Shown here piece by piece: positions 13,770-29,774 of a stretch of 64,000 nt of DNA (positions are counted from its first letter, which is position 1; the number at the start of each line of letters is the position of its first letter). The notes under the pieces were generated by a model, which saw only the letters and a list, made by a program, of their open reading frames with translations, did no database searches and was not told where the DNA came from. This DNA is from Acidimicrobiales bacterium (GTDB lineage Bacteria > Actinomycetota > Acidimicrobiia > Acidimicrobiales > CATQHL01): positions 1,122,071 to 1,186,070 of the forward strand of contig CBDBQD010000001.1 in NCBI GenBank assembly GCA_965209115.1. Reading direction: 5' to 3'. The translations under genes were made by a program, and so were the position numbers.

Positions 13770-13776
13770 TCCGGCT

Positions 13777-14583: not shown

Positions 14584-14628
14584 GTGGTTCACGATAGATG
14601 ACGTGCCGGCGGTCCTCGACGCCTGGAG

Positions 14629-15543
14629 GTGATGGCAGTGGCGACTGAATCCGAGACGTCCACGCTGGCGGTCAAGACCGCTGACGGGGTGGCGCTGCAC
14701 ACAGAAGCAGTCGGCAGCGGCGATCCGATCCTGTTCATCCATGAGTTCGCCGGCGACCATCGCACCTGGGAGCCGCAGATGCGGCGGTTCTCACGCAGTC
14801 ACCGCTGCATCACCTACGGCGCGCGCGGCTATCCCCCGTCCGAGGTTCCGCCCGATCCCGCCGCGTACTCCCAGCAGCACGCCGTCGGCGACGCCGTCGC
14901 GGTGCTTGACGCCCATTCGGTCACCGAGGCGCACGTTGTCGGGATCTCCATGGGAGGTTTCGCCGGGCTGCACCTCGCCATGCAGCATCCGGAGCGTGTC
15001 AGGTCGGTGGTCGCGGCGGGCACGGGTTACGGCGCCCGCCCCACCGAAGTTGACCGCTTCCGCTGGGAGTGTGATGCCATCGCGGAGGTGATCGAGACCG
15101 CGGGAATCGCTGCGTTCGCCGAGCAGTACATGTCCGGGCCGTCGCGGGTGCAACTGCAGAACAAAGATCACCGCGCCTGGCAGGAGTACACCAGGTGGGT
15201 GAGCGAGCATTCGGCGGAAGGCTCGGCCGCCACGATGCGCGGCGTGCAGCGGGAAAGGCCGTCGCTGTACGCCCTGGAGGCTGAACTGGCGGCGATCGCG
15301 GCCCCGGTGCTCGTTCTGGCCGGCGACGAGGACGACGGCTGCCTGGAGACGAGCGTGTGGCTGAAGAGGGTGGTCCCGACGTCCGGCCTCGCCGTCCTCC
15401 CCAAGTCGGGGCACACGCTGAACGTCGAGGAGCCGGATCTTGTGAACACGCTCATCGCGGACTTTCTGCACCGGGTCGAGGCCGGCGTTTGGGGACCGCG
15501 AGATCCGCGCGCCGATCCGGGAGCCATCACCGGCTTCTCGTGA
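14629..15543 (+). CDS. Alpha/beta hydrolase
   Basis: Nucleophile elbow GISMGG and an HEFAGDH oxyanion region. Start is GTG 14629, ATG 14632 or GTG 14638. Confidence 0.85.
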   Translation: MMAVATESETSTLAVKTADGVALHTEAVGSGDPILFIHEFAGDHRTWEPQMRRFSRSHRCITYGARGYPPSEVPPDPAAYSQQHAVGDAVAVLDAHSVTEAHVVGISMGGFAGLHLAMQHPERVRSVVAAGTGYGARPTEVDRFRWECDAIAEVIETAGIAAFAEQYMSGPSRVQLQNKDHRAWQEYTRWVSEHSAEGSAATMRGVQRERPSLYALEAELAAIAAPVLVLAGDEDDGCLETSVWLKRVVPTSGLAVLPKSGHTLNVEEPDLVNTLIADFLHRVEAGVWGPRDPRADPGAITGFS

Positions 15544-15574
15544 GGCCGTCCAGGCGGGGGTGTGACATCATTTC

Positions 15575-16414: not shown

Positions 16415-16525
16415 CCCGGATCCGTCATCCCGGCGGAAGGCCCCGTCATCCCGGCCTGCCCCGTCATCCCGGCCTGCCCCGTCATCCCGGCCTGCCCCGT
16501 CATCCCGGCGCAGGCCGGGATCCAT
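16415..16525 (+). repeat. Tandem array of 5 CCGTCATCCCGGC half-sites (period 18-20 bp) ending in the full hairpin CCCGGC-GCAG-GCCGGG + ATCCAT
   Basis: Read directly from the sequence. Begins 13 bp after the SDR stop. Same architecture as 52607-52677. Confidence 0.9.
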
Positions 16526-16591: not shown

Positions 16592-17275
16592 CTACGCCGA
16601 TCGCTTGTCCCGCCGCGCCCAGATACGGTCGATGTACGCCACCGCCTCGGGTGTCTTGCAGGAGGTCTCGCCGTGGTCCACGGCGACGGGGCCGATCCGC
16701 CGGGCGGAGGCGGTCGCGCTCTCCCGCAGTGACTCGTTGCGGCCGCCGATGGCGATGAGGGCGCCGTTCATGCAGTGACGGACCCGGTTGGCGGCCGTCG
16801 CGATGCCGGATTCGATGCTCTCGAGTCGCATCTCGAAGTACCCGTCAGGCAAACCCTTGCCGGCGAGGGCCTGTTGCGCCACGAGGGTCCAGCCGGCCGC
16901 GACCAGCCACTCGCCGTCATCGGCGGTCCAGTCCTCCGCGCAGCCGTCCAGGAACGGCGTGCGGGCGACGAACGCGGCCATCTCGTCGATCAGGACATAG
17001 TTGCCGAGGTCCGCAACCCAGGCCTCGATCTCGGACCGCCCGGCCTGCGCCGGGTCGGCGACGGCAAGAGCCAGCACGCGGGCGTCGTGGTTCCCGCTCG
17101 CCCACAGCGCCCTTGCCAGGTCGTGATCGGGCCCGAGCTTCTTCCCCATCTTGCGGAGGTGGGCGAAGCTGACGCCGAACATCGGCTCGTTCACGCCGTG
17201 ACGGGCGTAGACCTTGCGGTTCTGGGCCGTGCCCAGCGCCTCCAACTCCGCCAACACGCGGCCGGGATCGCTCAT
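16592..17275 (-). CDS. DNA alkylation repair protein (AlkD-like HEAT-repeat family)
   Basis: Start at MSDPGRVLAELEALG. NRKVYARHGV...FGVSFAHLRKMGKKLG...LARALWASGNHDARVLA resembles the DNA-alkylation-repair family. Confidence 0.6.
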   Translation of the reverse strand: MSDPGRVLAELEALGTAQNRKVYARHGVNEPMFGVSFAHLRKMGKKLGPDHDLARALWASGNHDARVLALAVADPAQAGRSEIEAWVADLGNYVLIDEMAAFVARTPFLDGCAEDWTADDGEWLVAAGWTLVAQQALAGKGLPDGYFEMRLESIESGIATAANRVRHCMNGALIAIGGRNESLRESATASARRIGPVAVDHGETSCKTPEAVAYIDRIWARRDKRSA

Positions 17276-17627
17276 CGCCGATGCCGCTCCTTCCGGGTGC
17301 GCCGTTTCGCGGCGTGTACCACTCGGTCCTGTGCAGACCTCTCGCCTGCGCACCAGGCACCACGATATGTGATCGCCCTGAGGCCGCCGCAGCCGAGCGG
17401 CGTACGTCTGCCGAGGCCGTGGCGGATCGGGCCGACGAGGACCCCCACGCCGAGCCGACCGTCCGCTACCTCATCGACCCGTTCCGCGACTACACCCTCC
17501 ACTTCGCCGAAGCCAAGATCACCCTCAACGTCGCCGACCTCCTCACCGCCGCCGGCCAGCCTTGCTGAGCGTCGCTCGGCACCGTCCCGCGGGTCGGCCG
17601 CCAGAAGCGCGGGCTATCCTTACATCG

Positions 17628-18710
17628 ATGGACAGTGTCTGCCCGCAGCGAGCGTGGGTGGAGGCGCTGCGCCCGGGTACGTTCTTCCGGACGCGCGACG
17701 TCCCTGGTCCGACGCGTGGCGCGGTGTCGACGTTCCTGAGCCGGGAGGCGTCCAAGCCCGCGGGTCGGGCCGTTTGCCGGCGGGTCGCGCCGAACCTGTA
17801 CTGGAAGCCCCGTCGTAACGAGCGTGGCGTGCCGATCGAGCCGGACTACCTGGCCCTTGCGGGGGCCATCGCCGGCCGCGGTCACGGGATGGCGGGCCAC
17901 GACGCCGGAATCGTCGCCGGGTGGCTGACGCACACCGTCTCGGCGACCGCGACGGTGGCTGTGGTGGGTGAGCCGAGCGTGCGCAGGCCGCTGCCGACGC
18001 TCCTCCTGCGGGCGCGGGCGAACACGCGCCGGCGCGCCCTCACTCCTCTCGAGGTCACGTATCTCGAAGCGATCGCCTCCTTCGACGAGTGTGCGGAGGT
18101 TGACTGGCCTGCCGCGCTGCGGATCACCGAACGGCAGGTCGGGCATCGCGGCCGGTTGCGCACACGGCTCATGCTGGCGGTCGCTGCGGCCGAGCGCGGT
18201 CCGGGCTCGCTCGGGCTGCGTGGACGACTGGGCGAGTTCTGCGACGTGGTCTCGGGCCTGCCGCCTCCGGCCGCACCGGTTCTGCCCCCGCCGCCGCGGC
18301 CGGTGTTGGATCGCCGCTTGGTGACCGCCGCCGATCTGCCGTCGTGGATGGCGGAGTCGCCCGGATCGCGCATCGGCGCGCTCTCCACGTTCGTCAACCA
18401 CTGGGCGCATTATCCGCACCATCGCGCCGCGTTGTGCGCCGCGCCGCCGCGGGGGGAGAACCGTCTGGATCTGGCGCGGATCGCCGCCACGGTGCACGCC
18501 CTCTGCGACAGGGACGCCGTCGAGGTTCCACACTGGGTGTGGGCGAACCGTTGGCACGAGGACGTCGCGGTGCACAGCGCCGGCACGGTCACCCCGGAAC
18601 TCCGGGAGATCGCGCCGGCCGCCTGTCGCCTTCACCGGGTCTGGTTCGCCGATGACCACATCATGTGCATCTCCGTCCACGGATTCTGGAACCGTCGGCA
18701 CGCCGCATGA
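17628..18710 (+). CDS. AbiEi-like winged-helix protein with an extra C-terminal domain of unknown function
   Basis: The N-terminus WVEALRPGTFFRTRDVPGPTRGAVSTFLSREASKPAGRAVCRRVAPNLYWKP has the AbiEi-antitoxin N-domain pattern. The last 150 aa or so are W/H-rich and unrecognised. Confidence 0.5.
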   Translation: MDSVCPQRAWVEALRPGTFFRTRDVPGPTRGAVSTFLSREASKPAGRAVCRRVAPNLYWKPRRNERGVPIEPDYLALAGAIAGRGHGMAGHDAGIVAGWLTHTVSATATVAVVGEPSVRRPLPTLLLRARANTRRRALTPLEVTYLEAIASFDECAEVDWPAALRITERQVGHRGRLRTRLMLAVAAAERGPGSLGLRGRLGEFCDVVSGLPPPAAPVLPPPPRPVLDRRLVTAADLPSWMAESPGSRIGALSTFVNHWAHYPHHRAALCAAPPRGENRLDLARIAATVHALCDRDAVEVPHWVWANRWHEDVAVHSAGTVTPELREIAPAACRLHRVWFADDHIMCISVHGFWNRRHAA

Positions 18711-19375
18711 CGGAAGTGAGGTTCACGCGCGACGAACTGCTCGCGCTGTTTGCCGCCGTCGATGAGCTTCTGCCGGAGGGCGATCCGCTCCGGGTTCCCG
18801 TCGGCGGCGCCGTGGCGATCATGGCGGTCCAGCCGGGGCGCGTATCCAGCGACGTGGACGTTTTCCTGCCCACGCTGCCGCCAGACCTGCGCCAGGCGGT
18901 CACCGCCGTGACCGAGCGCCATCGACTGCCCGAGGGATGGTTCAACACCACCGCCGGCGAGATGGGGCTTCCGCCGTTCGAGTTGGACGACGAGCCGTTC
19001 TTCGAGGGGAATCGGCTGGTGGTCGAAGTCGTCGATCCCACCTCGAAGCTCCTGCTCAAGCTCAACGCAGCACGGGCCAAGGACCGCGAAGACATTCTCG
19101 TACTGATGGAAGCGACAGGGTTCACCTCACAGGACGATCTGCTTCTGTTGATAGATGCGCACTTCGACGAGTATCCCGGGTCCAGCCTTGACCGCCTCTG
19201 GATGCAGGGAGTCGCCCGGGAAGCGGCGCTCGAGTTCCGGCGGCGGGCGTGGAATATCGAGGGCCCTGACGACACCGGCGGCGCGGCCCCAAGTCCTGTC
19301 GACGAGGAGGAGTTGCTGCGCCAATGGGGCCTCGAAGTCGATTCCCCGCCGGACGGACCTCAACCCGATCGGTGA
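18707..19375 (+). CDS. Nucleotidyltransferase-fold protein (minimal NTase; AbiEii/DUF6036-like)
   Basis: ATGA overlap with the upstream gene. VGGAVAIMAVQPGRVSSDVDVF matches the G-x-x...S-x-D-x-D NTase motif. KLLLKLNAARAKDREDILVL is a helix typical of these NTases. Confidence 0.5.
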   Translation: MTEVRFTRDELLALFAAVDELLPEGDPLRVPVGGAVAIMAVQPGRVSSDVDVFLPTLPPDLRQAVTAVTERHRLPEGWFNTTAGEMGLPPFELDDEPFFEGNRLVVEVVDPTSKLLLKLNAARAKDREDILVLMEATGFTSQDDLLLLIDAHFDEYPGSSLDRLWMQGVAREAALEFRRRAWNIEGPDDTGGAAPSPVDEEELLRQWGLEVDSPPDGPQPDR

Positions 19376-19661
19376 CCGATGCAGCGGGTGTGTCTGCTGG
19401 TCAGCGAGGGTTGTCGGCGTCGGCGGGGAGGATGCGCAGGGGACGGCCGCTGAACGACCGCCGTGCCGCAGTTCGACAGGACATGAGGCATCGCATAAGG
19501 CTGGGAGGCCTCGCGGGCGATGCTGATTGATCTCGAGATGAGGAGCCGCATCCGAGACTTGGTAGGGGGAATTCGGAAGGCCGGGATCGAGTTCGCGTTT
19601 GAGCGAGACGCAGGACATGATAAGGCAGATTCGCGTGATGGGGTTGGTACGGTGAGCGGCC

Positions 19662-20528
19662 GTGGCTGGGTATCGGCCGAAGCTGATTGAGGTGGCGCTG
19701 CCTCTGGCCGCGATCAATGCGGAGGCGGCTCGGGAGAAGTCGATACGGCACGGGCACCCGTCGACATTGCATCTGTGGTGGGCTCGGCGGCCGTTGGCGG
19801 CGGCCCGGGCGGTGATCTGGGCTTCGCTGGTGGACGATCCGTCCGGGGACGAGTCGCTGACCGCTGCCGAGCAGGACGCTGAGCGGGCTCGGCTGTTCGG
19901 CATTCTCACGCAGCTCGTGCAGTGGGAGAACTCGAACAACCCGGACGTGCTGCCGGCGGCTCGGGCCGAGATCGACCGGTGCTTCCCGGATGGGCCGCCG
20001 GCGGTCCTGGACCCGTTCGCCGGGGGCGGTGCGCACGATGCAGCAGGGCAGCATCGCCCCGGTCGACATGGCACAGTCGACAATCGGGCCGGGGATGAAG
20101 GTGTTCTCCCGCTACAGCAAGGTCGTGGAGGCCGCCGAGTCGGCGATGTCGGTGTCGACGGCTCTGGCGATCATCAACGACGTGCTGGGCGGGATCCTCG
20201 ATGGGGCGGAGGCCGAACTCGACGCCCCGACGCGGTTCGCGCTGACTTGGTACTCGCAGTACGGCTACGAAACCGCGCCGTCGGGTGACGCCGACATCCT
20301 GGCTCGGGCCAAGGGCACGTCACTGGAGGGGATCGAGGAGGCAGGCATCGGCCAGAGGCTCGTGCCGGTCAGACTCGCCTCTACGAGCGTTCGGAGCTGG
20401 CCGAGGGTTGGTCGCCGGCGAGCGACAACGGCTGGGCCGCCGAGGCCGGCACCTACAACGCCCTCATCGCCGCCTGGCCTGCCCTGCGGGCCGCCGACTC
20501 GGTCCCCGAGGCCCCCACGCTCCTCTAA
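19662..20528 (+). pseudogene. DUF1156-type DNA methyltransferase remnant (large internal deletion plus frameshifts)
   Basis: N-terminus [45 protein letters not shown]...DPFAGGG, then a jump at about 20031-20055 into the C-terminal region ([21 protein letters not shown]...) in another frame. A third frame ends ...LYERSELAEGW...TLL*. Confidence 0.7.
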
Positions 20529-20613
20529 TGCACCTGTTCGGGCAGGTGAGAACGTCGGGCCGCTGCCCGGATCGAGATCATCGGTCGGTCGGGCTGACCT
20601 ATTCGCGCACACT

Positions 20614-20993
20614 CTAGTCCCAGCGGACGAGGATCGGCCCTCCGCGTCCCAGGCTGCCCACCAGTGCGGCGAAATCACCGGTGTCCGCCGTGAGAATGTC
20701 ATCGGCAAGCTGTGTTGCGAGCACCACGAGGTGCGCGTCCACCACATCGGTACCGCCGGACCTCCGGAGCAGGCCGCCAACTCGTGTCGCGTCGGCATGC
20801 TCAAACGGGTGCACATCCACGGATCGGAGGAACCGGCCGAGCCGGACCTGTTGAGGAGGGCTTCGCAGGACCTGTGCCACGACTGGAGCGCTCGTTCGAA
20901 GCGGCTCCCCTCGTGCGACGGCCTGATTTACGACCGCAGAGACCTCGGCCTCACCGCGGTCTACGCGATCAGCGGTCCCGCGTCGAGGATCAC
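20614..20993 (-). pseudogene. PIN-domain toxin (VapC-like) with an N-terminal frameshift
   Basis: The GTG overlaps the antitoxin stop (GTGA). It reads VILDAGPLIA, then an in-frame TAG at 20961-20963. The rest of the PIN domain (VDRGEAEV...DVVDAHLVVLA...ILTADTGDF) is in the -1 frame. Confidence 0.6.
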
Positions 20994-21223
20994 CTATTGA
21001 AGTAGCGGCGCCCCGCCTCGGCGACCGCTTCGGGATCGGGATGTCCGAACTCCTCGATCCATTCCTGTTCGAACTCGCGAAGCGCCTGCCGCCGGCGGCT
21101 GTGGGCTGCGAGCAGTCGGAGGCCTTCCCGGACCGCAGCTGACTGGCTGCCGAACTCCGCGGCCAACTCCTCAAGCAGCCGGGAATCGTCGCCGTTCAGT
21201 CGGATCGTGGTGGCCTTGGCCAT
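20990..21223 (-). CDS. Ribbon-helix-helix (CopG-like) antitoxin
   Basis: 77 aa. MAKATTIRLNGDDSRLLEELAAEFG fits a beta-strand followed by a helix, the RHH pattern. It lies directly upstream of the PIN gene. Confidence 0.7.
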   Translation of the reverse strand: MAKATTIRLNGDDSRLLEELAAEFGSQSAAVREGLRLLAAHSRRRQALREFEQEWIEEFGHPDPEAVAEAGRRYFNR

Positions 21224-21351
21224 GGCTCCAGGATACTTGGATGTGACGTTGCGAGACTACGCGGCCCCGCTCGGGCGGGCGCTGTCGCAGGGGCGGTCAT
21301 AGTGTCTGCGGCGCGGCCTCGCCGCTGCCTCAGGAGGTTCGCCGCATCGTC

Positions 21352-22582
21352 ATGAGCAACAGCGAGCGCGTCGGGCGGGCGCTGCCGGCGGCGGCGGGGA
21401 GGGCGGCAGCGGTGGGCAGCGCCTTCCCGGTGGTGACTTCGACACGCAGTTCACGTTCGCGCAGGCGCTGACCGAGGCCGCGGCGGCGGTGCCGAACGTG
21501 GTGGTGCTGGTGACGGTCCCGGCGTCGGACATCGAGGCGGGCGGCGACCGGGGGCGCACGGCGTTGGAGCGGCTGAAGAACGTGGTGACCCGCACGGCGG
21601 CGCAGTGGCAGCCGGCGTCGCCGGACGAGTCGTTCGAGATCGTGCGGCGGCGGCTGTTCGATCCGGTGCCGGCGGAGCGGGCGAGGGTGCGCGACGGGGT
21701 CGTCCGGGCGTTCAGCGAGATGTACCGGGACCGGCCCGGCGATTTCCCGTCGGGCGCCGGCGAGGTCGACTACCGCAAGCGGATGGAGCTGTCGTACCCC
21801 CTGCACCCCGAACTGTTCGACCGGCTGTTCGGGGACTGGTCGGCGCTGGACCGCTTCCAGCGCACCCGGGGGGTGCTGCGGCTCATGGCGCTGGCGATCT
21901 CGCAGCTCTGGCAGCGCGGCGACCGGTCGCTGCTGATCATGCCCTCCAGCCTGCCCATGGACTCCGGCACGCTCGTGAGCGAGTTGAGGAAGTACCTGGA
22001 GGAGGGCTGGGACCCGGTCATCAAGGCCGATGTGGACGGCGCGAACTCCCTGCCGCTGCGCATCGACAACGAGACGCCGCACTTCGGGCGCCTGTCGGCC
22101 ACCCGGCGCGCCGCACGCACCGTCTACGTGGGCTCGGCGCCCCGGCCCGACGCCAAGCGGGGCGTGGACCTGCGCTCGGTGGTGCTGGGGTGCGCCCAGC
22201 CCGGCGAGCCGACCGGCCAGTTCGCCGACGCGCTGAAGCGGCTGTCGGGCGAGGCGACGCACCTGCGCACCTGTACGTGGACGGCAACCAGTACTGGTAC
22301 TCGCTGCAGCCCAACGTCACCCAGGTGCTGATCCCCACACAGAAGCCGGGCACCCCAGAGGTGGACTGGCAGACCGCCAGGGCGAGCACCGACGGCGACA
22401 TCGGCGCCCGCGTGAGTCGCAAGCTCGCCAGCAGCGAAGAACTGATCGCCCGCCTCGGCTCCGACCTCGAACTCTCCCTCGAACTCCGAGCCAACAAGCC
22501 CGACGGCTACGACGACGCCACCCAACGAATCGTCTCCGAGAACGCCGCCAACCTCGGCGCCACCGCAAGCGAGTTCGAGTAG
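21352..22582 (+). pseudogene. DUF499-type ATPase remnant (5' truncated, frameshifted, internally deleted)
   Basis: Lacks the Walker region. Carries FDTQFTFAQALTEAA...FEIVRRRLF...HPELFDRLF...TRGVLRLMA. Frameshifts at about 21428 and 22258-22273. The C-terminal ...IVSENAANLGATASEFE* follows shortly after YVDGNQYWYSLQPNVT. Confidence 0.7.
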
Positions 22583-22625
22583 GCGCCGGCGTCAATCGCA
22601 GACGCTGGCCGGTTCGCTGATCGTT

Positions 22626-22674
22626 GGATTCCGGCCCTGGATCGAGTCCGGGGCCGGCTCTGCGCCGGAATGAC
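22626..22674. repeat. REP-like compound element GGATTCCGGCC-N27-GCCGGAATGAC
   Basis: Read directly. Near-identical to 24424-24472 and related to 25787-25837. Confidence 0.85.
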
Positions 22675-22698
22675 GTCGGGTTCGGCGTGCCGGAGCCA

Positions 22699-22821
22699 GT
22701 CGGAGACCGCGCGGCGGGGGATGCAGAGGGCGGGCGGTCCGGGAGGCGGGCTCGGCTCCTCGGCGGTCTCTGCCGCCGGCGAACCGGACGTGGCGGCACC
22801 TTCGGGTAGCCGCGGGCCGCC
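22699..22821 (-). pseudogene. 3'-terminal fragment of a YHYH-lipoprotein gene
   Basis: GGPRLPEGAATSGSPAAETAEEPSPPPGPPALCIPRRAVSD parallels the C-terminus of the intact gene (GGPQLPEGAVTSGSPAAQTADD...PPALCLPRLGVCD). Confidence 0.6.
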
Positions 22822-22948
22822 GGCCGGTATTGCTGTCGTCGAGGAGTTCCGACGCAGCGGCCGAGGCATCGACGACCGATGGCCGGGGCCGTCCTCGCGG
22901 GAACTCGACGCTCTGAGCCGCGTGGATTCGACATCCTGCACTCCTCAC

Positions 22949-23003: not shown

Positions 23004-24224
23004 GTGATCGAGCGCGAGATAACACCGCATCTGGTGCGCCTGTTCGGGCAGTATCCGTTCGTGACGGTGACCGGACCGCGCCAGTCCGGCAAGACCACAC
23101 TGTGCCGCTCAGCGTTCGGCGAGTTGGCGTACGCGAACCTCGAGGATCCTCAGGTGCGCGCCTATGCGGAGCGTGACCCGCGCGGCTTCTTGGCGGAGTT
23201 CCCCGACGGCGCGGTCCTCGACGAGGTCCATCGCGTGCCGGACCTGCTGTCGTACCTGATGGTGCTGGGCGATGAAGCGGGCCGGCCCGGCATGTTCGTG
23301 CTGACCGGCAGTGAGCAGTTCGGCCTGACAGGGGCGGTGAGCCAGTCACTCGCCGGCCGCACGGCACTGCTGCGGCTGTTGCCGTTCTCGCTGGCCGAGT
23401 GCCGCCGGGCCGGCGCCTCCGGACGGATCGAGGAAATCCTCTACGACGGCTGCTACCCGCGGATCCACGATCGGGGCCTCAACCCCACCGAGGCGCTCGG
23501 CGCCTACTGGGAGACCTATGTCGAGCGCGACGCGCGCCGGATCGGGCGGATCCGCAACCTCAGCCAGTTCCGGGACTTCGCCGGCCTGTGCGCGGGCCGC
23601 GTCGGCCAGCTGCTCAACCTGACGAGTCTCGGCGGCGACGCCGGTGTGTCGCACCCCACAGCGGCCGAATGGATCGCCGTCCTCGAGGCCAGCGACATCG
23701 TCTTCCGGCTCCGGCCCCACCACGCCAACACCCGCAAGCGCCTCACGCGCTCGCCGAAGCTCTACTTCCATGACGTCGGCCTGGCCGCCTACCTGTTGGG
23801 GATCAGCGATCCGGACCAGCTGGTCCGCCACCCCCTGCGCGGCGCCCTGTTCGAGAACGCGGCCATTGTGGAGGCCGTCAAGCACCGCTACAACAGGGGC
23901 ACCACCGCGTTCCTTCCCGACATCGCCTTCTACCGGGACCACAAGGGGTTCGAGGTCGACCTGCTCTACCCGACGGGCGACGGGCTTGCCGCCATCGAGA
24001 TCAAGTCCGGCCGCACTGTCGCCTCGGACTGGTTCGCCGGCCCCGCCCGGCTCGCGGGCACCCTGCCGGGAATCACCGCGCAGGCCGTCGTGTACGGCGG
24101 CACGGAGCGCCAGCACCGCACCGCTGGCGACGTCGTGCCGCTCGGGCAGTTCGCGGAGTTCCTGGCCAACCTGGACGTGCCGTCCTCGCATCTCGCACCA
24201 GACGGCCTCGACCTCCTGCCCTGA
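23004..24224 (+). CDS. AAA-family ATPase with DUF4143 C-terminal domain (AAA_14/DUF4143 type)
   Basis: Walker A GPRQSGKTTL and Walker B AVLDEVH. LTGSEQF...LAGRTALLRLLPFSLAE is typical of this family. GAGGTAGGA lies upstream of the GTG. Confidence 0.85.
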   Translation: MIEREITPHLVRLFGQYPFVTVTGPRQSGKTTLCRSAFGELAYANLEDPQVRAYAERDPRGFLAEFPDGAVLDEVHRVPDLLSYLMVLGDEAGRPGMFVLTGSEQFGLTGAVSQSLAGRTALLRLLPFSLAECRRAGASGRIEEILYDGCYPRIHDRGLNPTEALGAYWETYVERDARRIGRIRNLSQFRDFAGLCAGRVGQLLNLTSLGGDAGVSHPTAAEWIAVLEASDIVFRLRPHHANTRKRLTRSPKLYFHDVGLAAYLLGISDPDQLVRHPLRGALFENAAIVEAVKHRYNRGTTAFLPDIAFYRDHKGFEVDLLYPTGDGLAAIEIKSGRTVASDWFAGPARLAGTLPGITAQAVVYGGTERQHRTAGDVVPLGQFAEFLANLDVPSSHLAPDGLDLLP

Positions 24225-24235
24225 TCGTTCGTCCG

Positions 24236-24381
24236 GATCGTCGTCGCCGAGAGCAAGATCACTCTCACCGTCGCCGACATCCATGTGCGAAGTCGGCCGT
24301 GGTGCCGTTTTTGCCTCCTCCGCGTTGAATCGTCTCGGAGACCGCCTCCAACCTCGGCGCCCCGCAAGCGAGTTCGAGTAG
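24236..24381 (+). pseudogene. Second, more degraded DUF499 3'-end remnant
   Basis: Reads ...KITLTVADI... and then, across frames, IVSETASNLGA / ASEFE*. This parallels ...IVSENAANLGATASEFE* at 22527-22582. Confidence 0.45.
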
Positions 24382-24655
24382 GCCTGGCGGCAGTCGCAGA
24401 TGCTGGCCGGTTCGCTGATCGTTGGATTCCGGCCCCGGATCGAGTCCGGGGCAGGCTCTGCGCCGGAATGACGTCGGGTGGGGCGCGCCGGCGTCAGTCG
24501 CAGACGCCGAGGCGGGGGAGGCAGAGGGCGGGCGGTTCGGGCGGTCGGGTGGGTGGTTCGGACGGTGAGGTCGGTGCCTTGGCGGGATCGTCGGCGGTCT
24601 GCGCCGCCGGCGAACCGGACGTGACGGCGCCCTCGGGGAGTTGCGGGCCACCGGC
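24327..24655. repeat. Right copy of the approximately 300-bp direct repeat
   Basis: See 22527-22825. By eye, identity is roughly 80-90% with several indels. Confidence 0.85.
24424..24472. repeat. REP-like compound element
   Basis: GGATTCCGGCCCCGGATCGAGTCCGGGGCAGGCTCTGCGCCGGAATGAC. Confidence 0.85.
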
Positions 24656-25783
24656 GTGCGGGTCGCCGGGGCGCAGCTCGCCGCGGAACCAGGGGCCGAG
24701 GATGTAAGGGAAGGTGTCGGTGAAGCTGCCGTCGCCGTTCTGGATGCGGGTGACGTGGTAGTGGTAGCCCAGGTCGTCGTGGGAATGTCCGTTGAAAGCA
24801 TCGAGGGCGTGCGGCGCCCCGTCGTCGAGGCCGATGTCGAACCAGTAGTCCTCGAAGAATGCGCCCGCAGGGACCTCCGCGGTGGTGGGTCCGGGGGCAG
24901 GCGCCGGCACCACGCCGCCGGCGGGGTCCAGCGAATCGGCCAGGCGGCAGGTCCGGCGGCCGGCTTCGGCGCACCCTGTCGCCGATCCCGCCGTGTCGTA
25001 GTCCCGGAGCCGCCAGGAGCTGCGCGCCAGGAGTTCCAGGTCGGCCCAGGGGCCGTGCACCGGGTAGCCGTCGGCGGCGAAGCCGTAGACGGGGGAGTGC
25101 CGGGCGCCGTCGTCGCCGAGGTGCAGCGCCAGGCACTCCGGGTAGACGTGCGGTGAGGACTCGTCGGCCGCCGGCCCGGCACAGGAGAACCCGTCGTCGC
25201 CCACCGCGCCGGGCGCCACCGTGCGCCAGACGCCCTCGCCGCGGTAGGTCCCGCCGTTGCTCCAGTTGGCGATGGGGGCGCCGGTCACCCACAGGCCGAT
25301 CGGGGCCCGCCCGGTGGCTGTCGGTGCCGTTGCCGGGGACGGTTCGAGGGGGAACAAGCCCGCCGTCACCTCCCCGCTGCCCGCTTCCCTCGCCACCCGA
25401 ACCGCCACGTAGAGCTCGGCGTCGATCCGCAGCACCTCCAGCGCTGTCGCCCGCACCGCCACCTCCGTCGGCGCCGGCGGCTCGGGAGTGCCTTCCAGCA
25501 CGATGAAGTCGCCGGTGTCGATGGGCTCGTAGTCCTCCCGCAGGTCGAAATGGTGGTTGCGGCGCCACCACGGCGCCGCCGGCTCGCCTCCGAAGCCCGC
25601 CAGGGCGTCGGCGGGAACGAGCCAGGCGGTCAGCAGAGGCCCGCCGGTCGCCGGGTCGCTGAGGGCAGAAGGCCCCGAGGCCGCGGCGCAGCCGGCGGCC
25701 GCCACCATCCCGACGACGGCGAGCGCTCGCGTCAGACGGGCCAGCGAGTCACGGGACCGCTGTGATGCGGGTCTCATCTCCAT
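24494..25783 (-). CDS. YHYH-domain lipoprotein
   Basis: Lipobox VAAAGC. HSHDDLGYHYHVT motif near the C-terminus, followed by a Pro-rich tail ending CLPRLGVCD. Confidence 0.75.
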   Translation of the reverse strand: MEMRPASQRSRDSLARLTRALAVVGMVAAAGCAAASGPSALSDPATGGPLLTAWLVPADALAGFGGEPAAPWWRRNHHFDLREDYEPIDTGDFIVLEGTPEPPAPTEVAVRATALEVLRIDAELYVAVRVAREAGSGEVTAGLFPLEPSPATAPTATGRAPIGLWVTGAPIANWSNGGTYRGEGVWRTVAPGAVGDDGFSCAGPAADESSPHVYPECLALHLGDDGARHSPVYGFAADGYPVHGPWADLELLARSSWRLRDYDTAGSATGCAEAGRRTCRLADSLDPAGGVVPAPAPGPTTAEVPAGAFFEDYWFDIGLDDGAPHALDAFNGHSHDDLGYHYHVTRIQNGDGSFTDTFPYILGPWFRGELRPGDPHAGGPQLPEGAVTSGSPAAQTADDPAKAPTSPSEPPTRPPEPPALCLPRLGVCD

Positions 25784-25786
25784 AGT

Positions 25787-25837
25787 CTGGATTCCGGCCC
25801 CGGATCGAGTCTGGATTCCGGCTTTCGCCGGAATGAC
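25787..25837. repeat. REP-like compound element containing the full hairpin GGATTCCGGC-TTTC-GCCGGAATGAC
   Basis: Read directly. Lies between the YHYH gene start and the stop of the glutamate-synthase-family gene. Confidence 0.85.
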
Positions 25838-25859
25838 GGGTGTTCATGGCTTGGAATTA

Positions 25860-27389
25860 TCAGTCGGTGGTGCTCACCAATCCGCGCATGCTCTGGCCGG
25901 CGAGTTCCGCCTGTTCGGTGCTGAGGGTGTCGAGATCGGGTGGGTAGCGGTAATGCTGGCAGAGGTCCACCCTCTTCGCCGGTTCCTCATACAGCAACTC
26001 CAGCGCGGTCGGCGGGACCAGCGCCGGATGAGCCACCCCGCAGGCGTGGGCCAGCTGCAGCAGTTCGGCCCGCAGGCTCATGATGTAGTTGGCGCAGCGC
26101 ACCGACTTGAGCGCCGGATCCAGGCCACGCGTCAACCAGCGGCTGTGGGTGGTGATGCCGGTGGGGCAGCGCCCGGTGTGACAGCGCTGGGTCTGGACGC
26201 AGCCGATCGCCAGCAGCGCCTCGCGCCCCACGTTCAGGAGATCGGCGCCCATGTTCATGGCCGCTAGGCCCTCGGCGCCGAATCCCAGCTTGCCGCCGCC
26301 GACGAAGGTCACCTTGTGGTGCAGGTCGTGGCCGGCGAAGGTGAGGTACACCCGGGCGAATCCCCGCCGGAAGGGCAGCGCCACGTTGTTGGTGAACACC
26401 AGCGGCCCCGCGCCGGTGCCGCCCTCGCCGCCGTCCACGTTGACGAAGTCGGGGCCCTCACCCCGCTCGGCCATGCGGCGGGCCAGCTCGTCCCAGAATC
26501 GGGCGCCGCCGACGGCGGACTTGATGCCCACCGGCAGGCCGGTCGTGTCGGCGAGCAGCTCGGTGAAGTCGATGAGGCCGTCCACGTCGCCGAAGGCGCT
26601 GTGCGCGTTGGGGCTCTTCACCGTCTTGCCGACCGGCACGCCTCTGGCGGCGGCGATCTCCGGTGTCACCTTCACGCCGGGCAGCATGCCGCCGAGGCCG
26701 GGCTTGGCCCCCTGGCTGAGCTTGACCTCGATGGCCCGGACCGGCGCCCCGGCGACGGTCTCAGCCAGCCTCGGCAGGCTGAAGGTGCCGTCGGGGTTGC
26801 GGCAGCCGAAATAGCCGGTGCCTATCTGGTAGATGAGCTCGCCGCCGTTGCGGTGGAAGTTGGAGATGCCGCCCTCGCCGGTGTTGTGCAGGCAGCCGGC
26901 GAGCCGCGCGCCGATGTTCAGGGCCTCAACCGCCGGGCCGCTGAGCGAGCCGTAGCTCATCCCCGAGATGTTCACGACCGACGCCGGCCGGAAACGTCCC
27001 GGGCGGTCCCGCCAGGCGCCCAACTCCTTGGCGCACGGCAGCGTGGCCGCCTCATCGATCCCCTCGGTGTGCGGGAAGGCGGCGTGCTTGATGATGAGGT
27101 AGCCGGTCCGGTCAACGTCCTGGTCGGTCCCGAAGCCGAAGTTGGGGTTCTGGCGCTTGGCCGAGGCGTAGACCCAGCGGCGCTGCGCCCGGTCGAAGGG
27201 CCGCTCCTCGTCGTTGCTGGCGACGATGTACTGGCGCAGTTCGGGGCCGATGCTCTCCAGCAGGTAGCGGAGATGTCCGATGATCGGGAAGTTGGCCAGG
27301 ATGGTGTGCCGGCGCTGCACCACGTCGTGGACAGCCACCGCCAGCAGGAACCCCCCGATGACGATCACGGCGATGAGCCAGCCGGCCAT
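25860..27389 (-). CDS. FMN-binding glutamate synthase family protein (GltB domain-2-like), N-terminal TM anchor
   Basis: Start at MAGWLIAVIVIGGF. NVDGGEGGTGAGP and GLGGMLPG motifs. Confidence 0.85.
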   Translation of the reverse strand: MAGWLIAVIVIGGFLLAVAVHDVVQRRHTILANFPIIGHLRYLLESIGPELRQYIVASNDEERPFDRAQRRWVYASAKRQNPNFGFGTDQDVDRTGYLIIKHAAFPHTEGIDEAATLPCAKELGAWRDRPGRFRPASVVNISGMSYGSLSGPAVEALNIGARLAGCLHNTGEGGISNFHRNGGELIYQIGTGYFGCRNPDGTFSLPRLAETVAGAPVRAIEVKLSQGAKPGLGGMLPGVKVTPEIAAARGVPVGKTVKSPNAHSAFGDVDGLIDFTELLADTTGLPVGIKSAVGGARFWDELARRMAERGEGPDFVNVDGGEGGTGAGPLVFTNNVALPFRRGFARVYLTFAGHDLHHKVTFVGGGKLGFGAEGLAAMNMGADLLNVGREALLAIGCVQTQRCHTGRCPTGITTHSRWLTRGLDPALKSVRCANYIMSLRAELLQLAHACGVAHPALVPPTALELLYEEPAKRVDLCQHYRYPPDLDTLSTEQAELAGQSMRGLVSTTD

Positions 27390-27440
27390 GTCTCTCACGC
27401 TAGTGAGCCGTTCCTCCACCTTGGCGCGCTCGCCGGTCTG

Positions 27441-27522
27441 GTCCGGTCGGGGCCGGGGCGCCGTTCGCTCTTTCGACTCCCGAGTCGTCGCGAATCGGCC
27501 CCCGGTCCCCTCCCTCGGTTGT
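27441..27522. repeat. Modular C-rich element: GTCCGGTCGGGGCC ... TCGTCGCGAATCGG ... GTCCCCTCCCTCGGTTGT
   Basis: The same modules recur at 33883-33995. Located in a divergent intergenic region. Confidence 0.7.
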
Positions 27523-27616
27523 GTGGTCACTCCTGTCGGCGCGGCGGCTGGTGCCGAATCACGCGGCACCGCGGGCATCTACACTCAGCCGCCGGCCGAC
27601 CGGAGGGAGCGAGACG

Positions 27617-29395
27617 ATGACCGACAACGCTCTGCCAGCTGACGAGCAGACCACCAGCGAGGTGCGCGACGGGATGCGCATCGACTGGGACGTGCCCATC
27701 CCGATGGACGACGGCCTGGTGCTGCGTGCCGACGTGTACCGCCCCGACGACGCCGGGCGCTACCCGGTGCTGCTCTCCTACGGCCCCTACGCCAAGGGAC
27801 TGGCGTTCCAGGAGGGTTATCCCAGCGCCTGGAACCGGATGGCCGAAGAGCATCCCGACGTGGTCGCCGGCTCCACGAACAAGTACCAGAACTGGGAGGT
27901 CTGCGACCCCGAGAAATGGGTGCCCGACGGCTACGTGTGCCTGCGGATCGACGCCAGGGGCTGCGGCCGCTCGCCCGGCTACATCGATCACTTCTCGCCT
28001 CGGGAGACCCAGGACCTCTACGACTCCATCGAGTGGGCGGCCGTCCAACCCTGGAGCGACGGCAAGATCGGGCTCTCGGGGGTCTCGTACTACGCCATGA
28101 ACCAGTGGGCGGTGGCCTCCCGCCAGCCGCCGCACCTCGCGGCCATGATCCCCTGGGAGGGCGCCGCGGAGTGGTACCGGGACTCCACCCATCACGGCGG
28201 CATGGTCAGCACCTTCTGGGACAACTGGTACGACATGCAGGTCAAGACCGTGCAGCACGGCCTGGGGACCCGGGGTTCGGTCAACCCCAACACGGGGGAG
28301 CTGACCTCGGGGCCTCCCACGCTCAGCGACGAGGAGCTGGCCGCCAACCGCTGCGCCTTCGGGGACGACATCCTGGCGCATCCCTTCGACGACCAGTACC
28401 ACGCCGACCGCTCGCCGGTCTGGGACAAGGTGGTGGTGCCGTTCCTGTCCTCGGCCAACTGGGGCGGCCAGGGTCTGCACCCGCGGGGGAACTTCGAGGC
28501 CTACACCCGCTCGGCGTCGCCGGAGCGCTGGCTGGAGGTGCACGGCATCGAGCACTGGACCGAGTACTACACCGACTACGGCGTGACGCTCCAGAAGCGG
28601 TTCTTCGGGCACTTCCTGAAGGGGGCCGACACCGGTTGGGACAGCCAGCAGCGGGTGTTGCTGCAGGTGCGCCACGTGGACCGCTTCGTGGAGCGGGCCG
28701 AGGACGACTGGCCGATCCCGCGCACCGACTGGCAGCGCTGGGGCCTGCACGCCGACGGCACCCTGCGCCGCAACAAGGAGCAGTGCGCCCGCGCCGGCGA
28801 GTTGAGCTACGAGGCCACCGGCGACGGGCTGACGTTCCTCACGACGCCACTGGCGGCAGAGACCGAGATCACCGGCCCGCTGGCGGCCAAGCTGTTCGTG
28901 TCATCCTCCACGGCTGACGCCGACCTGTTCGCAGTGTTCCGGGTGTTCGACCCCGACGGCGACGAGGTCACCTTCATGGGGGCGATCGACCCGCACACGC
29001 CGATCGCCCAAGGCTGGCTGCGGGCGAGCCATCGCAAACTCGATGCCGAACTGTCGCTGCCGTGGCGCCCCTACCACACGCACCTCGAGGCGGACCACCA
29101 GCCGCTGGTGCCCGGCGAGGTCTGCGAGTTGGACATCGAGATCTGGCCGACGTGCATCGTGGTGCCGGCGGGCTACCGCATCGGCTTCAGCGTGCGCGGG
29201 CGCGACTACGAGTACGGCGGCGACACATCGGGGCTGATGCTCTCCAACTTCAAGAACGAACTGCGCGGCTGCGGGCCGTTCCTGCACAACGACCCCCGCG
29301 ACCGCCCGCCGGAGATCTTCGAGAACGAGGTGACCCTGCACTTCGGGCCCGACCGCCCGAACCACGTCCTGGTCCCGGTCATCCCCCGGGCCTGA
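27617..29395 (+). CDS. CocE/NonD family hydrolase (S15 X-Pro dipeptidyl-peptidase-like)
   Basis: Start at ATG 27617 with GGAGGGAG upstream. YPVLLSYGPYAKG, the nucleophile region GLSGVSYYA, and a C-terminal beta-sandwich region. Confidence 0.85.
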   Translation: MTDNALPADEQTTSEVRDGMRIDWDVPIPMDDGLVLRADVYRPDDAGRYPVLLSYGPYAKGLAFQEGYPSAWNRMAEEHPDVVAGSTNKYQNWEVCDPEKWVPDGYVCLRIDARGCGRSPGYIDHFSPRETQDLYDSIEWAAVQPWSDGKIGLSGVSYYAMNQWAVASRQPPHLAAMIPWEGAAEWYRDSTHHGGMVSTFWDNWYDMQVKTVQHGLGTRGSVNPNTGELTSGPPTLSDEELAANRCAFGDDILAHPFDDQYHADRSPVWDKVVVPFLSSANWGGQGLHPRGNFEAYTRSASPERWLEVHGIEHWTEYYTDYGVTLQKRFFGHFLKGADTGWDSQQRVLLQVRHVDRFVERAEDDWPIPRTDWQRWGLHADGTLRRNKEQCARAGELSYEATGDGLTFLTTPLAAETEITGPLAAKLFVSSSTADADLFAVFRVFDPDGDEVTFMGAIDPHTPIAQGWLRASHRKLDAELSLPWRPYHTHLEADHQPLVPGEVCELDIEIWPTCIVVPAGYRIGFSVRGRDYEYGGDTSGLMLSNFKNELRGCGPFLHNDPRDRPPEIFENEVTLHFGPDRPNHVLVPVIPRA

Positions 29396-29462
29396 GGCGG
29401 CGGCCCATAGTTCCCTGTGCTATGACTCCAGCAGGCAAGGCGGATCCTGGGAGGTAGGACAG

Positions 29463-29774
29463 GTGTCGAACGAGGTGCGCAAGGACAGCTATGCCGTTGG
29501 CACGGTGGTGATCCACCGTGCCAACGCGATCGGAATCGTCGCCGCGGGCGTGATCAACGCCCTGGGTGCCGCGGCGCTGAGTCTGATCAGCGCCATGGGA
29601 CTGGTCACCGTCGGCGGCGTGAACTCGATCGGCATCGTGGCGCTCGGCGGGGTGAACTCGATCGGGTTGGTGGCGGTCGGCGGGGTGAACTCGGTCGGCG
29701 TCGTCGCCATCGGCGGCTTGAACGCCGTGGGCCTCGTCGCCATCGGCGGCGGCAACGTCACCAGCATGCTGTAG
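29463..29774 (+). CDS. Small hydrophobic protein built from seven 11-residue repeats ([VIL]-N-[SA]-x-G-x-V-A-x-G-G)
   Basis: GTG start with GGGAGG about 9 nt upstream. 103 aa. 33-bp DNA periodicity at about 29590-29750. No family recognised. Confidence 0.55.
   Translation: MSNEVRKDSYAVGTVVIHRANAIGIVAAGVINALGAAALSLISAMGLVTVGGVNSIGIVALGGVNSIGLVAVGGVNSVGVVAIGGLNAVGLVAIGGGNVTSML

What the first reader, a model, noticed from the sequence alone, without database searches (positions are those of the whole stretch)
19662..22582. Decayed DUF1156-methylase / DUF499-ATPase defence-type module, split by a toxin-antitoxin cassette
The plus strand carries the unmistakable N-terminus of a DUF1156 DNA methylase ([45 protein letters not shown] ... 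DPFAGGG). At about 20031-20055 this is fused directly, and out of frame, to the last 170 residues or so of the same family ([21 protein letters not shown] ... [10 protein letters not shown] ... LYERSELAEGW). Several hundred codons of the catalytic body are therefore missing. About 0.8 kb downstream lies a DUF499 ATPase with no Walker region, at least two frameshifts and a shortened C-terminal third. An RHH-PIN cassette on the opposite strand sits between the two remnants. Intact DUF1156/DUF499 gene pairs are a recurrent, still poorly characterised restriction-modification-like module of defence islands. Here it can be seen mid-decay, which marks 17-25 kb as an old defence island.
Basis: partly seen in the sequence, partly recalled or inferred. 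Interest (0 to 1): 0.6.

Follow-up and report, generated by a model that had tools for sequence, protein, structure and literature searches.

The report
Decayed Hma anti-phage defence operon
This stretch holds the wreck of a known three-gene anti-phage system (Hma, also called a type-1 BREX-related system), cut down by at least six deletions and two small duplications, with a toxin-antitoxin pair between two of its genes; it is an ordinary dead defence system.

Summary
Window 17437-22582 (+) is the colinear relic of an hmaA-hmaB-hmaC operon (PADLOC "Hma", also called a type-1 DUF499-centred BREX-related system).

What survives:
- The last 43 codons of the helicase-nuclease gene hmaA.
- About 30% of the DUF1156 methylase gene hmaB. 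SAM motif I is kept and catalytic DPPY is lost.
- About 37% of the DUF499 ATPase gene hmaC. HEPN, Walker A and Walker B are lost.

I mapped the breakpoints against the intact genes of a relative that shares the window's right flank (L002). Three of the five junctions lie in 6-15-nt microhomologies. Nine independent metagenome contigs (96-99% identical) carry the same hmaB junctions, so these are not assembly errors. Window-specific substitutions show relaxed constraint (omega about 0.6, against about 0.13 in three intact orthologues).

The RHH/VapC-like cassette sits exactly in the hmaB-hmaC spacer and damages neither gene end. Of 61 relatives, 46 carry insertions at that spot, many of them toxin-antitoxin pairs and mostly beside intact genes. 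The cassette therefore marks a known insertion hotspot and did not cause the decay. In this window the PIN toxin itself has a 1-nt frameshift.

An AbiE-like pair and a PDC-S01 candidate gene complete a 17.4-24.4 kb defence island. The kind of system is known and interest is low.

The parts
17437..17568 (+). hmaA 3' relic: the last 43 codons plus the stop of the SNF2 helicase / NOV_C nuclease gene. About 3.5 kb of the gene is missing upstream.
   Evidence: tblastn with L004 HmaA aa 1158-1200 gives 65% identity, E=4e-13. blastn matches the hmaA 3' ends of L003, L004 and L025.
17562..18710 (+). AbiEi-like ORF (382 aa) in the hmaA-hmaB gap; looks intact.
   Evidence: PADLOC AbiEi E=1.3e-12. 100% identical in metagenome contig L081. 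No Pfam or NCBIfam hit.
18665..19375 (+). Possible nucleotidyltransferase (AbiEii/DUF6036-like) ORF of 236 aa, the putative partner of the AbiEi-like gene.
   Evidence: Pfam DUF6036 E=0.0064, below the curated cut-off. 99.6% identical in L081.
19662..20033 (+). hmaB N-terminal relic (aa 1-124): DUF1156 helical domain plus SAM motif I (FAGGG).
   Evidence: Pfam DUF1156 E=3.8e-28 and PADLOC HmaB E=2e-43. 90% aa identity to L002 HmaB 1-124.
20019..20033 (.). Junction of the 1781-nt out-of-frame hmaB deletion, inside an imperfect 15-nt microhomology (8 nt exact: GCCGGGGG).
   Evidence: Three-way alignment with both L002 flanks. The same junction is present in nine metagenome contigs, L081-L089.
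20034..20528 (+). hmaB C-terminal relic (L002 aa about 714-922). It has a window-specific 2-nt AG duplication at 20354-20357 (frameshift), a 150-nt in-frame deletion at 20417, and a stop at the native position (20526-20528).
   Evidence: PADLOC HmaB positions 745-853, E=5e-34. Mapping by tblastn and blastn. The 2-nt insertion is absent from all nine related contigs.
20614..20993 (-). VapC-like PIN toxin gene, frameshifted in this window by a 1-nt deletion in a G/C run at 20964, after codon 7. This separates the first catalytic Asp from the rest of the protein.
   Evidence: All nine related contigs have the extra base and an intact ORF of about 126 aa. Six homologues carry PF01850. AlphaFold model pLDDT 94; best Foldseek match VapC15 4chg_A, TM 0.78. 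Invariant D4, D83, D86, D104, D107.
20990..21223 (-). RHH/ParD-like antitoxin gene (77 aa), intact. Its stop overlaps the PIN start by 4 nt.
   Evidence: Pfam ParD_antitoxin E=0.011 and NCBIfam ParD-family E=2.5e-5, both below the curated cut-offs. 98.7% identical in seven contigs. Gene layout in L081.
21352..21413 (+). hmaC start relic: native ATG plus 11 codons (MSNSERVGRAL, 21352-21384), then 29 nt of filler (21385-21413). This replaces about 1.07 kb that encoded HEPN, Walker A and Walker B.
   Evidence: blastn-short: window 21357-21384 matches L002 8818-8845, 93% identity. Motif positions in L002 HmaC. Junction alignment.
21414..22265 (+). hmaC middle relic (L002 aa 373-656), frame 3.
   Evidence: PADLOC HmaC E=5e-99. 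90-93% aa identity to L002 and L004 HmaC.
22266..22273 (.). 8-nt tandem duplication (CGCACCTG) that shifts hmaC into frame 2.
   Evidence: The gap analysis against L002 shows an 8-nt insertion in the window, placed by blastn at 22258. Sequence read directly.
22274..22582 (+). hmaC C-terminal relic with two in-frame deletions and the native stop. The 474-nt deletion joins at 22317-22322 (microhomology TCACCC). The 504-nt deletion joins at 22447-22459 (microhomology GCCCGCCTCGG).
   Evidence: blastn and tblastn blocks. Junction alignments. PADLOC HmaC positions 894-940.
23004..24224 (+). AAA_14/DUF4143 ATPase gene, a PADLOC candidate defence gene (PDC-S01). It is an insertion relative to L002 and is bracketed by a direct duplication of about 300 nt (22527-22824 and 24327-24655).
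   Evidence: Pfam DUF4143 E=4.5e-43 and AAA_14 E=1e-22. PADLOC PDC-S01 E=2e-83. Repeats D1-D3. Synteny with L002.

Best explanation
Window 17437-22582 is a dead copy of an hmaA-hmaB-hmaC anti-phage operon (Hma, also called a type-1 DUF499-centred BREX-related system, HEPN-fused DUF499 variant).

In intact systems the published model, which is inferred and not fully tested, runs as follows. The DUF1156 N6-adenine methylase marks self DNA. The DUF499 AAA+ ATPase scans for and recognises invaders. The SNF2 helicase-nuclease HmaA cuts them.

Here none of these activities can remain:
- hmaA is reduced to 43 codons.
- hmaB lacks its catalytic and target-recognition core.
- hmaC lacks HEPN, Walker A and Walker B.
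- None of the three genes keeps its full reading frame; hmaB and hmaC are each split across frames.

Shown: at least six deletions plus two short tandem duplications (2 nt and 8 nt). Five deletions are mapped at the junction: 1781, 150, about 1070, 474 and 504 nt. Three of them lie in 6-15-nt microhomologies. The sixth is the loss of about 3.5 kb of hmaA.

Inferred: this pattern is what replication slippage or illegitimate recombination produces.

Timing: the decay happened after the lineage split from the relative L002, which shares the window's right flank and still has intact hmaB and hmaC. It happened before the 1-4% diversification of the natural population, because all nine related contigs share the hmaB junctions.

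The RHH/VapC-like cassette lies in the hmaB-hmaC spacer. This spacer is a recurrent landing site for small toxin-antitoxin cassettes in relatives, usually beside intact genes, so the cassette is a passenger and did not cause the decay. In this genome its toxin gene is also frameshifted.

An AbiE-like pair in the hmaA-hmaB gap and a PDC-S01 candidate gene downstream make 17.4-24.4 kb a small defence island in turnover.
For: - Profile hits to HmaB and HmaC.
- Intact reference operon in L004: HmaA 1200 aa, HmaB 913 aa, HmaC 1083 aa with HEPN_Swt1 plus DUF499.
- L002 has intact, adjacent hmaB and hmaC and about 90% nt synteny with window 24485-33994.
- Residue-level map of what is kept and lost.
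- Junction alignments with microhomologies.
- Nine contigs from separate assemblies, 96-99% identical and colinear across 19916-21003. They therefore span the hmaB junctions and the PIN gene. The frameshifts at 20354-20357 and 20964 are window-specific.
- Lineage-specific substitutions: window N36:S21 (omega about 0.6); L003+L004+L025 N47:S129 (about 0.13), Fisher p=1e-6; against L002 p=0.012.
- Survey of 80 relatives: hmaC is intact in most. The hmaB-hmaC spacer is compact in 15, 0.6-2 kb in 25 and over 2 kb in 21 of 61 loci.
- Spacer ORFs hit PIN (7), DUF4160 (3), DUF2442 (2), Fic/Doc (2), Phd (1) and ParE (1).
- Literature: Hma definition, HmaA activity and 66.5% of hma loci with inserted genes (PMC11232893). 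BR type-1 model (PMC12839542).
Against: - No independent contig covers the hmaC relic. The junction-specific metagenome scan gave only a chance hit, so its three deletions and the 8-nt duplication rest on this assembly alone.
- The relic frames contain no premature stop codons, and omega is 0.5-0.8 and not 1. The pseudogene phase is therefore short, or some constraint persists.
- In the population, the 162-aa C-terminal hmaB ORF keeps its own ATG and is unbroken in all nine contigs. Polymorphisms are N9:S8 after removing a recombinant tract. That is weakly fewer nonsynonymous changes than neutral expectation. The sample is too small to decide.
- Expression and methylation were not testable.
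Confidence: 0.87

Rival explanations
1. The retained fragments are domesticated. The 162-aa hmaB C-terminal ORF (part of the HTH-like triad), the DUF1156 N-terminal ORF or the 280-aa hmaC middle ORF may still be expressed. They could serve as a DNA-binding regulator, as a decoy, or as a partner of the embedded toxin-antitoxin or AbiE genes.
For: - The 162-aa ORF has its own ATG and is intact in all nine population contigs.
- Polymorphisms in the hmaB relic are not strongly enriched for nonsynonymous changes (N9:S8 after cleaning).
- There are no in-frame stops in 672 aligned relic codons.
- Three of the five mapped deletions are in frame.
- Independent in-frame "mini-HmaB" proteins of 371-376 aa exist elsewhere: P0171, P0175 and P0205.
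Against: - The window strain itself breaks the 162-aa ORF with a 2-nt insertion and adds two nonsynonymous changes there.
- Lineage omega for the hmaB pieces is about 0.8.
- A 50-codon deletion cuts the HTH region.
- Three of five in frame is not unusual by chance (p about 0.2, my binomial calculation).
- The mini-HmaB hits were selected by an N+C-fusion query with a length cap, so they say nothing about frequency.
- There are no expression data.
Confidence: 0.07
2. The embedded toxin-antitoxin cassette shaped the decay. As an addiction module it made any deletion crossing it lethal. Only deletions internal to each flanking gene were tolerated, which left gene ends and the cassette in place. 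The PIN frameshift in this strain then removed that barrier.
For: - All the deletions spare the cassette and the gene ends next to it.
- PIN is intact in nine of nine population contigs and broken only in the window.
- TA cassettes recur in this spacer in many relatives.
Against: - This is compatible with the best explanation and is not exclusive of it.
- With only five or six events, sparing an 0.8-kb segment is not statistically remarkable.
- L002, the relative that shares the window's right flank, has a compact spacer. The order of TA insertion and decay is therefore unknown.
- Toxicity of this VapC and neutralisation by the 77-aa protein are untested.
Confidence: 0.04
3. Assembly or sequencing artefact: the genes are full length and the gaps and frameshifts are errors.
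For: - The two small indels at 20354-20357 and 20964 are unique to this assembly. One lies in a homopolymer.
- The hmaC relic has no independent confirmation.
Against: - The 1781-nt and 150-nt hmaB deletions and the TA insertion are reproduced in nine contigs from ENA, JGI and Logan assemblies.
- The flanking genes shared with L002 show few indels.
- The hmaC junctions lie in microhomologies, and relaxed constraint is also seen in the hmaC pieces.
Confidence: 0.02

Closest known systems
Hma system (PADLOC; HmaA SNF2 helicase-NOV_C nuclease, HmaB DUF1156 methylase, HmaC DUF499 ATPase), also called the type-1 DUF499-centred BREX-related (BR) system, HEPN-fused variant
   Same: - Same three gene families in the same order and on the same strand.
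- Strong HMM matches for the surviving parts (HmaB 2e-43 and 5e-34; HmaC 5e-99).
- L002, which shares the window's right flank, has intact hmaB and hmaC.
- Close relatives carry the N-terminal Swt1-like HEPN on HmaC.
   Different: - Only about 4%, 30% and 37% of hmaA, hmaB and hmaC remain.
- All catalytic motifs that could be checked are deleted (DPPY, HEPN RxxxxH, Walker A, Walker B), and so is nearly all of the helicase-nuclease.
- It is a pseudogenised descendant and not a working member.
Defence-gene insertion hotspot inside hma operons (Halomonas meridiana study, PMC11232893)
   Same: Foreign small cassettes sit between hmaA and hmaB and between hmaB and hmaC. That paper reports gene insertions in 66.5% of hma loci. 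Here 46 of 61 Acidimicrobiales loci have an occupied hmaB-hmaC spacer.
   Different: In these actinobacterial relatives the short insertions are mostly type II toxin-antitoxin pairs: PIN, Doc, ParE/Phd and DUF4160/DUF2442. In Halomonas they were Septu, PARIS, Ppl and AAA_21 genes. In the window the host operon around the insert is dead.
VapBC type II toxin-antitoxin modules
   Same: - A 126-aa PIN-fold toxin with conserved acidic residues. The predicted fold matches VapC15, VapC1 and VapC2 (TM 0.72-0.78).
- A small upstream gene with RHH/ParD-like signals whose stop overlaps the toxin start.
   Different: - A divergent PIN family: the Pfam score is just below the gathering threshold, and PDB sequence searches gave only a weak VapC match (E=0.058).
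- The toxin is frameshifted after codon 7 in this window.
- The antitoxin assignment is weak.

Membership tests
Hma / type-1 BR system | SNF2-family helicase with a C-terminal NOV_C (PD-(D/E)XK) nuclease (HmaA), the demonstrated effector | tested here: not met
   Only the last 43 codons survive, at 17437-17565. No other HmaA match exists in the 64-kb window.
Hma / type-1 BR system | DUF1156 N-terminal domain on the methylase (HmaB) | tested here: met
   Pfam DUF1156 E=3.8e-28, full model length.
Hma / type-1 BR system | Complete N6-adenine methyltransferase core in HmaB (motif I FxGxG and motif IV DPPY, plus the TRD insert) | tested here: not met
   Motif I is kept at the junction. L002 aa about 125-713, which includes DPPY at aa 543, are deleted and the fusion is out of frame.
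Hma / type-1 BR system | DUF499 AAA+ ATPase with Walker A and B (HmaC), optionally HEPN-fused | tested here: not met
   The middle region matches HmaC at E=5e-99. L002 aa about 14-372 are deleted; these hold HEPN RNRWAH, Walker A GGGKT and Walker B VVLIDE.
Hma / type-1 BR system | Colinear hmaA-hmaB-hmaC arrangement on one strand, derived from an intact operon | tested here: met
   The relic order A, B, C on the + strand matches L004. L002 shares the right flank and has intact hmaB and hmaC.
Hma / type-1 BR system | Anti-phage activity and self-methylation | not testable with these tools
   This needs a methylome and phage assays. The anatomy predicts both are absent.
VapBC type II toxin-antitoxin | PIN-fold toxin with conserved acidic active-site residues | tested here: met
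   This holds for the population allele. AlphaFold pLDDT 94; Foldseek 4chg_A VapC15 E=5e-6, TM 0.78; invariant D4, D83, D86, D104, D107; PF01850 on six homologues.
VapBC type II toxin-antitoxin | Intact toxin reading frame in this genome | tested here: not met
   A 1-nt deletion at 20964 relative to all nine related contigs. The N-terminal VILDAGP is in a different frame from the rest.
VapBC type II toxin-antitoxin | Adjacent upstream antitoxin with a DNA-binding (RHH/AbrB-type) domain | tested here: inconclusive
   A 77-aa ORF overlaps the toxin start by 4 nt. Pfam ParD_antitoxin E=0.011 and NCBIfam ParD-family E=2.5e-5 are both below the curated cut-offs.
AbiE (AbiEi/AbiEii) system | AbiEi antitoxin-like protein followed by an AbiEii nucleotidyltransferase | tested here: inconclusive
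   AbiEi PADLOC E=1.3e-12 for 17562-18710. The partner at 18665-19375 gives only DUF6036 E=0.0064 and no AbiEii hit.

The most novel reading that the evidence does not exclude
The hmaB-hmaC spacer of Acidimicrobiales Hma operons may be a dedicated docking site for type II toxin-antitoxin cassettes that work with the system. They could act as addiction modules that anchor the defence operon against loss, or as a back-up abortive-infection layer. On this reading the window shows the predicted end state: flanking genes eroded only by internal deletions that never cross the cassette, with the final release coming through a toxin frameshift.
Probability: 0.12. Interest if true: 0.5.

Novelty: already known. 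Interest (0 to 1): 0.2.

Why it matters
The main value is for annotation. These ORFs should be labelled as pseudogene fragments of an Hma / type-1 BR system, and not as a DUF1156 methylase and a DUF499 ATPase. This genome should not be credited with that defence.

Two modest points go beyond that:
- The locus is a base-resolved example of how a large defence operon is dismantled. The steps are several deletions, three of them microhomology-bounded, and short tandem duplications. They are dated between a split from a relative that shares the right flank and a within-population diversification.
- In sponge-associated and other Acidimicrobiales, the hmaB-hmaC spacer is very often occupied by small toxin-antitoxin cassettes. 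This extends the published idea of an hma insertion hotspot to a new clade and a new cargo type.

Neither point changes how these systems are thought to work.

Tried and rejected
1. The search for homologous proteins returned only hits shorter than about 1.75 times the query length, so no full-length HmaB or HmaC came from it. I took intact references from genome contigs instead.
2. An exact-match metagenome scan for the 474-nt hmaC deletion junction gave one unrelated chance hit. The hmaC relic therefore has no independent confirmation.
3. The first population N/S count for the hmaB relic (N14:S17) looked like purifying selection. Inspection showed that 13 of the changes are one recombinant tract at the left end of L083. 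After removing it the count is N9:S8, which is inconclusive. The values for the AbiE-like ORFs were corrupted by non-homologous contig ends and were discarded.
4. The match of relatives to query residues 2-278 first suggested that they share the hmaC frameshift. ORF lists and tblastn show L002 to L004 are intact, so this was an out-of-frame HSP effect.
5. PDB sequence searches did not identify the PIN protein: phmmer found nothing relevant, and the profile gave VapC at E=0.058. The fold search did identify it.
6. Rfam found nothing in 16-26 kb. No tRNA or integrase marks the island borders; the only tRNA is at 7886-7966.
7. The window's RHH-PIN cassette has no close copy in the 80 relatives. 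Only L034 has a 32%-identical PIN in the same spacer.
Full report
**Observation**

The window is about 70% G+C. Its nearest relatives are uncultured Acidimicrobiales, many from sponge-associated lineages according to their record titles.

- 19662-20033 (+, frame 3) matches Pfam DUF1156 (E=3.8e-28) and PADLOC HmaB positions 10-116 of 967 (E=2e-43).
- The other-frame continuation, 20020-20355, matches HmaB positions 745-853 (E=5e-34).
- 21489-22328 matches PADLOC HmaC positions 237-495 of 941 (E=5e-99; Pfam DUF499 E=4e-7).
- 22440-22579 matches the last 47 positions of HmaC.

The module is therefore a relic of the Hma system, which consists of a helicase, a methylase and an ATPase.

**Reference loci**

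A genome-contig scan gave 80 related loci.

L004 carries an intact operon:
- HmaA, 1200 aa (SNF2 plus NOV_C).
- A UvrD-like helicase.
- HmaB, 913 aa.
- HmaC, 1083 aa, with an N-terminal Swt1-like HEPN domain plus DUF499.

L002 (OZ220687.1) has intact hmaB (942 aa) and hmaC (1084 aa) only 19 nt apart. Downstream it is syntenic with the window: window 24485-33994 aligns to L002 12062-20731 at about 90% nt identity. The left flank is not shared. L002 was used as the reference for mapping the breakpoints.

**Anatomy of the relic**

- hmaA: only aa 1158-1200 plus the stop remain, at 17437-17568.
- hmaB, N-terminal part: aa 1-124 (19662-20033) are kept, including SAM motif I (FAGGG).
- hmaB, main deletion: 1781 nt (about aa 125-713) are lost, including DPPY at aa 543. 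The deletion joins inside GCCGGGGG(C/T)GG(T/G)GCG at 20019-20033 and is out of frame.
- hmaB, C-terminal part: it runs to the native stop at 20526-20528. It carries a 2-nt AG duplication at 20354-20357 and a 150-nt in-frame deletion at 20417.
- hmaC, start: the native ATG and 11 codons (MSNSERVGRAL, 21352-21384) are followed by 29 nt of filler. About 1.07 kb is missing here. That stretch encoded HEPN (RNRWAH), Walker A (GGGKT) and Walker B (VVLIDE).
- hmaC, middle: aa 373-656 are kept (21414-22265).
- hmaC, frameshift: an 8-nt tandem duplication (CGCACCTG, 22266-22273) shifts the frame.
- hmaC, C-terminal part: in-frame deletions of 474 nt (microhomology TCACCC) and 504 nt (microhomology GCCCGCCTCGG) precede the native C-terminus and stop at 22582.
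- Overall, about 4%, 30% and 37% of the three genes survive.

**Is it real?**

Nine contigs from ENA, JGI and Logan assemblies are 96-99% identical to the window. All nine are colinear with it across 19916-21003, so they span both hmaB junctions and the PIN gene. The hmaB lesions and the insertion are therefore real and are shared by a natural population.

Two indels are unique to the window: the 2-nt insertion in the hmaB C-terminal relic, and a 1-nt deletion at 20964 in the PIN gene. No independent contig covers the hmaC relic. Its lesions rest on this assembly. The flanks shared with L002 show few indels.

**Selection**

I aligned the relic codons with four intact orthologues and counted changes private to each sequence.

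| Sequence | Nonsynonymous | Synonymous | Approx. omega |
|---|---|---|---|
| Window | 36 | 21 | 0.6 |
| L003 + L004 + L025 | 47 | 129 | 0.13 |
| L002 | 27 | 40 | 0.24 |

Fisher p is 1e-6 for the window against the three pooled orthologues, and 0.012 against L002. Constraint is relaxed on the window lineage but not for long: there are no in-frame stops in 672 codons.

Within-population polymorphism in the hmaB relic is inconclusive, at N9:S8 after removing a recombinant tract in L083.

**The toxin-antitoxin cassette**

The 823 bp between the hmaB stop and the hmaC start (20529-21351) carry two genes on the minus strand. One is a 77-aa RHH/ParD-like gene, with weak profile support. The other is a PIN gene.

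For the PIN gene:
- The population allele is 126 aa.
- Homologues carry PF01850.
- An AlphaFold model (pLDDT 94) matches VapC15, VapC1 and VapC2 (TM up to 0.78).
- D4, D83, D86, D104 and D107 are invariant.
- In the window the gene is frameshifted after codon 7.

The cassette damages neither flanking gene end.

**The spacer as an insertion hotspot**

Among 61 relatives where the spacer can be measured, it is compact (under 250 nt) in 15, 0.6-2 kb in 25 and over 2 kb in 21. Most of these loci have intact hmaB and hmaC.

ORFs in the 0.6-2 kb spacers hit PIN (7), DUF4160 (3), DUF2442 (2), Fic/Doc (2), Phd (1) and ParE (1).

This matches, and extends to toxin-antitoxin cargo, the published finding that 66.5% of hma loci contain inserted genes (PMC11232893). 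The cassette is a passenger at a hotspot and did not cause the decay.

**Surroundings**

- The hmaA-hmaB gap holds an AbiEi-like ORF (PADLOC E=1.3e-12) and a possible nucleotidyltransferase partner (DUF6036, E=0.0064).
- Downstream of hmaC lies an AAA_14/DUF4143 gene. It is a PADLOC PDC-S01 candidate (E=2e-83) and an insertion relative to L002. A direct duplication of about 300 nt brackets it.
- The island is bounded by a DNA-alkylation-repair gene (16592-17353) and a YHYH-family gene (24494-25783).

**Comparison with known systems**

- Hma was defined by PADLOC.
- HmaA alone protects against T4 in Halomonas meridiana through its nuclease (PMC11232893).
- A 2026 analysis renames these loci type-1 DUF499-centred BREX-related systems and proposes an RM-like mechanism: the methylase marks self DNA, the ATPase scans, and the helicase-nuclease restricts. 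HEPN acts as a back-up suicide effector in the HEPN-fused variant (PMC12839542).

The window descends from such a HEPN-fused variant. It fails every functional membership criterion that can be read from sequence.

**Verdict**

This is a correctly spotted, well-documented and ordinary pseudogenised defence operon of a known type. It is useful for annotation and as a clean example of defence-system turnover. It is not novel.

Noticed in passing
window 16423-16509, 22664-22675, 24462-24473, 25827-25838, 34047-34058, 52608-52661: A REP-like intergenic element with the core GCCGG(A/G)ATGACG occurs 13 times against 0.8 expected. One site is a perfect 18-nt x 3.9 tandem array at 16440-16509. Copies sit at both ends of the PDC-S01 insertion.
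   Followed up: partly
window 22527-22824 and 24327-24655: A direct duplication of about 300 nt (85-91% identity) brackets the DUF4143/PDC-S01 gene. It covers the hmaC 3' end, the intergenic element and the 3' end of the downstream YHYH gene. The second copy holds another tiny hmaC 3' relic at 24327-24361. The divergence suggests insertion by recombination with a diverged allele and not a fresh target-site duplication.
   Followed up: partly
proteins P0171, P0175, P0205 (other metagenomes): These are independent in-frame "mini-HmaB" proteins of 371-376 aa. Each joins the DUF1156 N-terminus to the complete C-terminal region without the methyltransferase core, and each has a different junction near motif I. 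My fused query with its length cap probably selected for them.
   Followed up: no
L003 18193-20797 vs window 13080-15544: Homologues of the genes to the left of the window's island lie inverted, downstream of hmaC, in L003. This suggests a rearrangement breakpoint at or near the hma locus.
   Followed up: no
L012, L014, L015, L018, L028, L030, L036, L038, L042, L066, L076, L077, L079; proteins P0002, P0014, P0056: In other relatives hmaB or hmaC aligns in fragments. Examples are a roughly 1.2-kb insertion in hmaB of L018, split frames in L015 and L077, and a truncated hmaC in L030 and L066. This suggests decay of this operon may recur in the clade, although hmaC is intact in most loci.
   Followed up: partly
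L083 1-420 vs window 19659-19730: Contig L083 changes context just upstream of hmaB. Its first 70 nt or so of hmaB carry a dense cluster of mostly synonymous differences. This looks like a recombination tract from another allele at the island's internal boundary.
   Followed up: no
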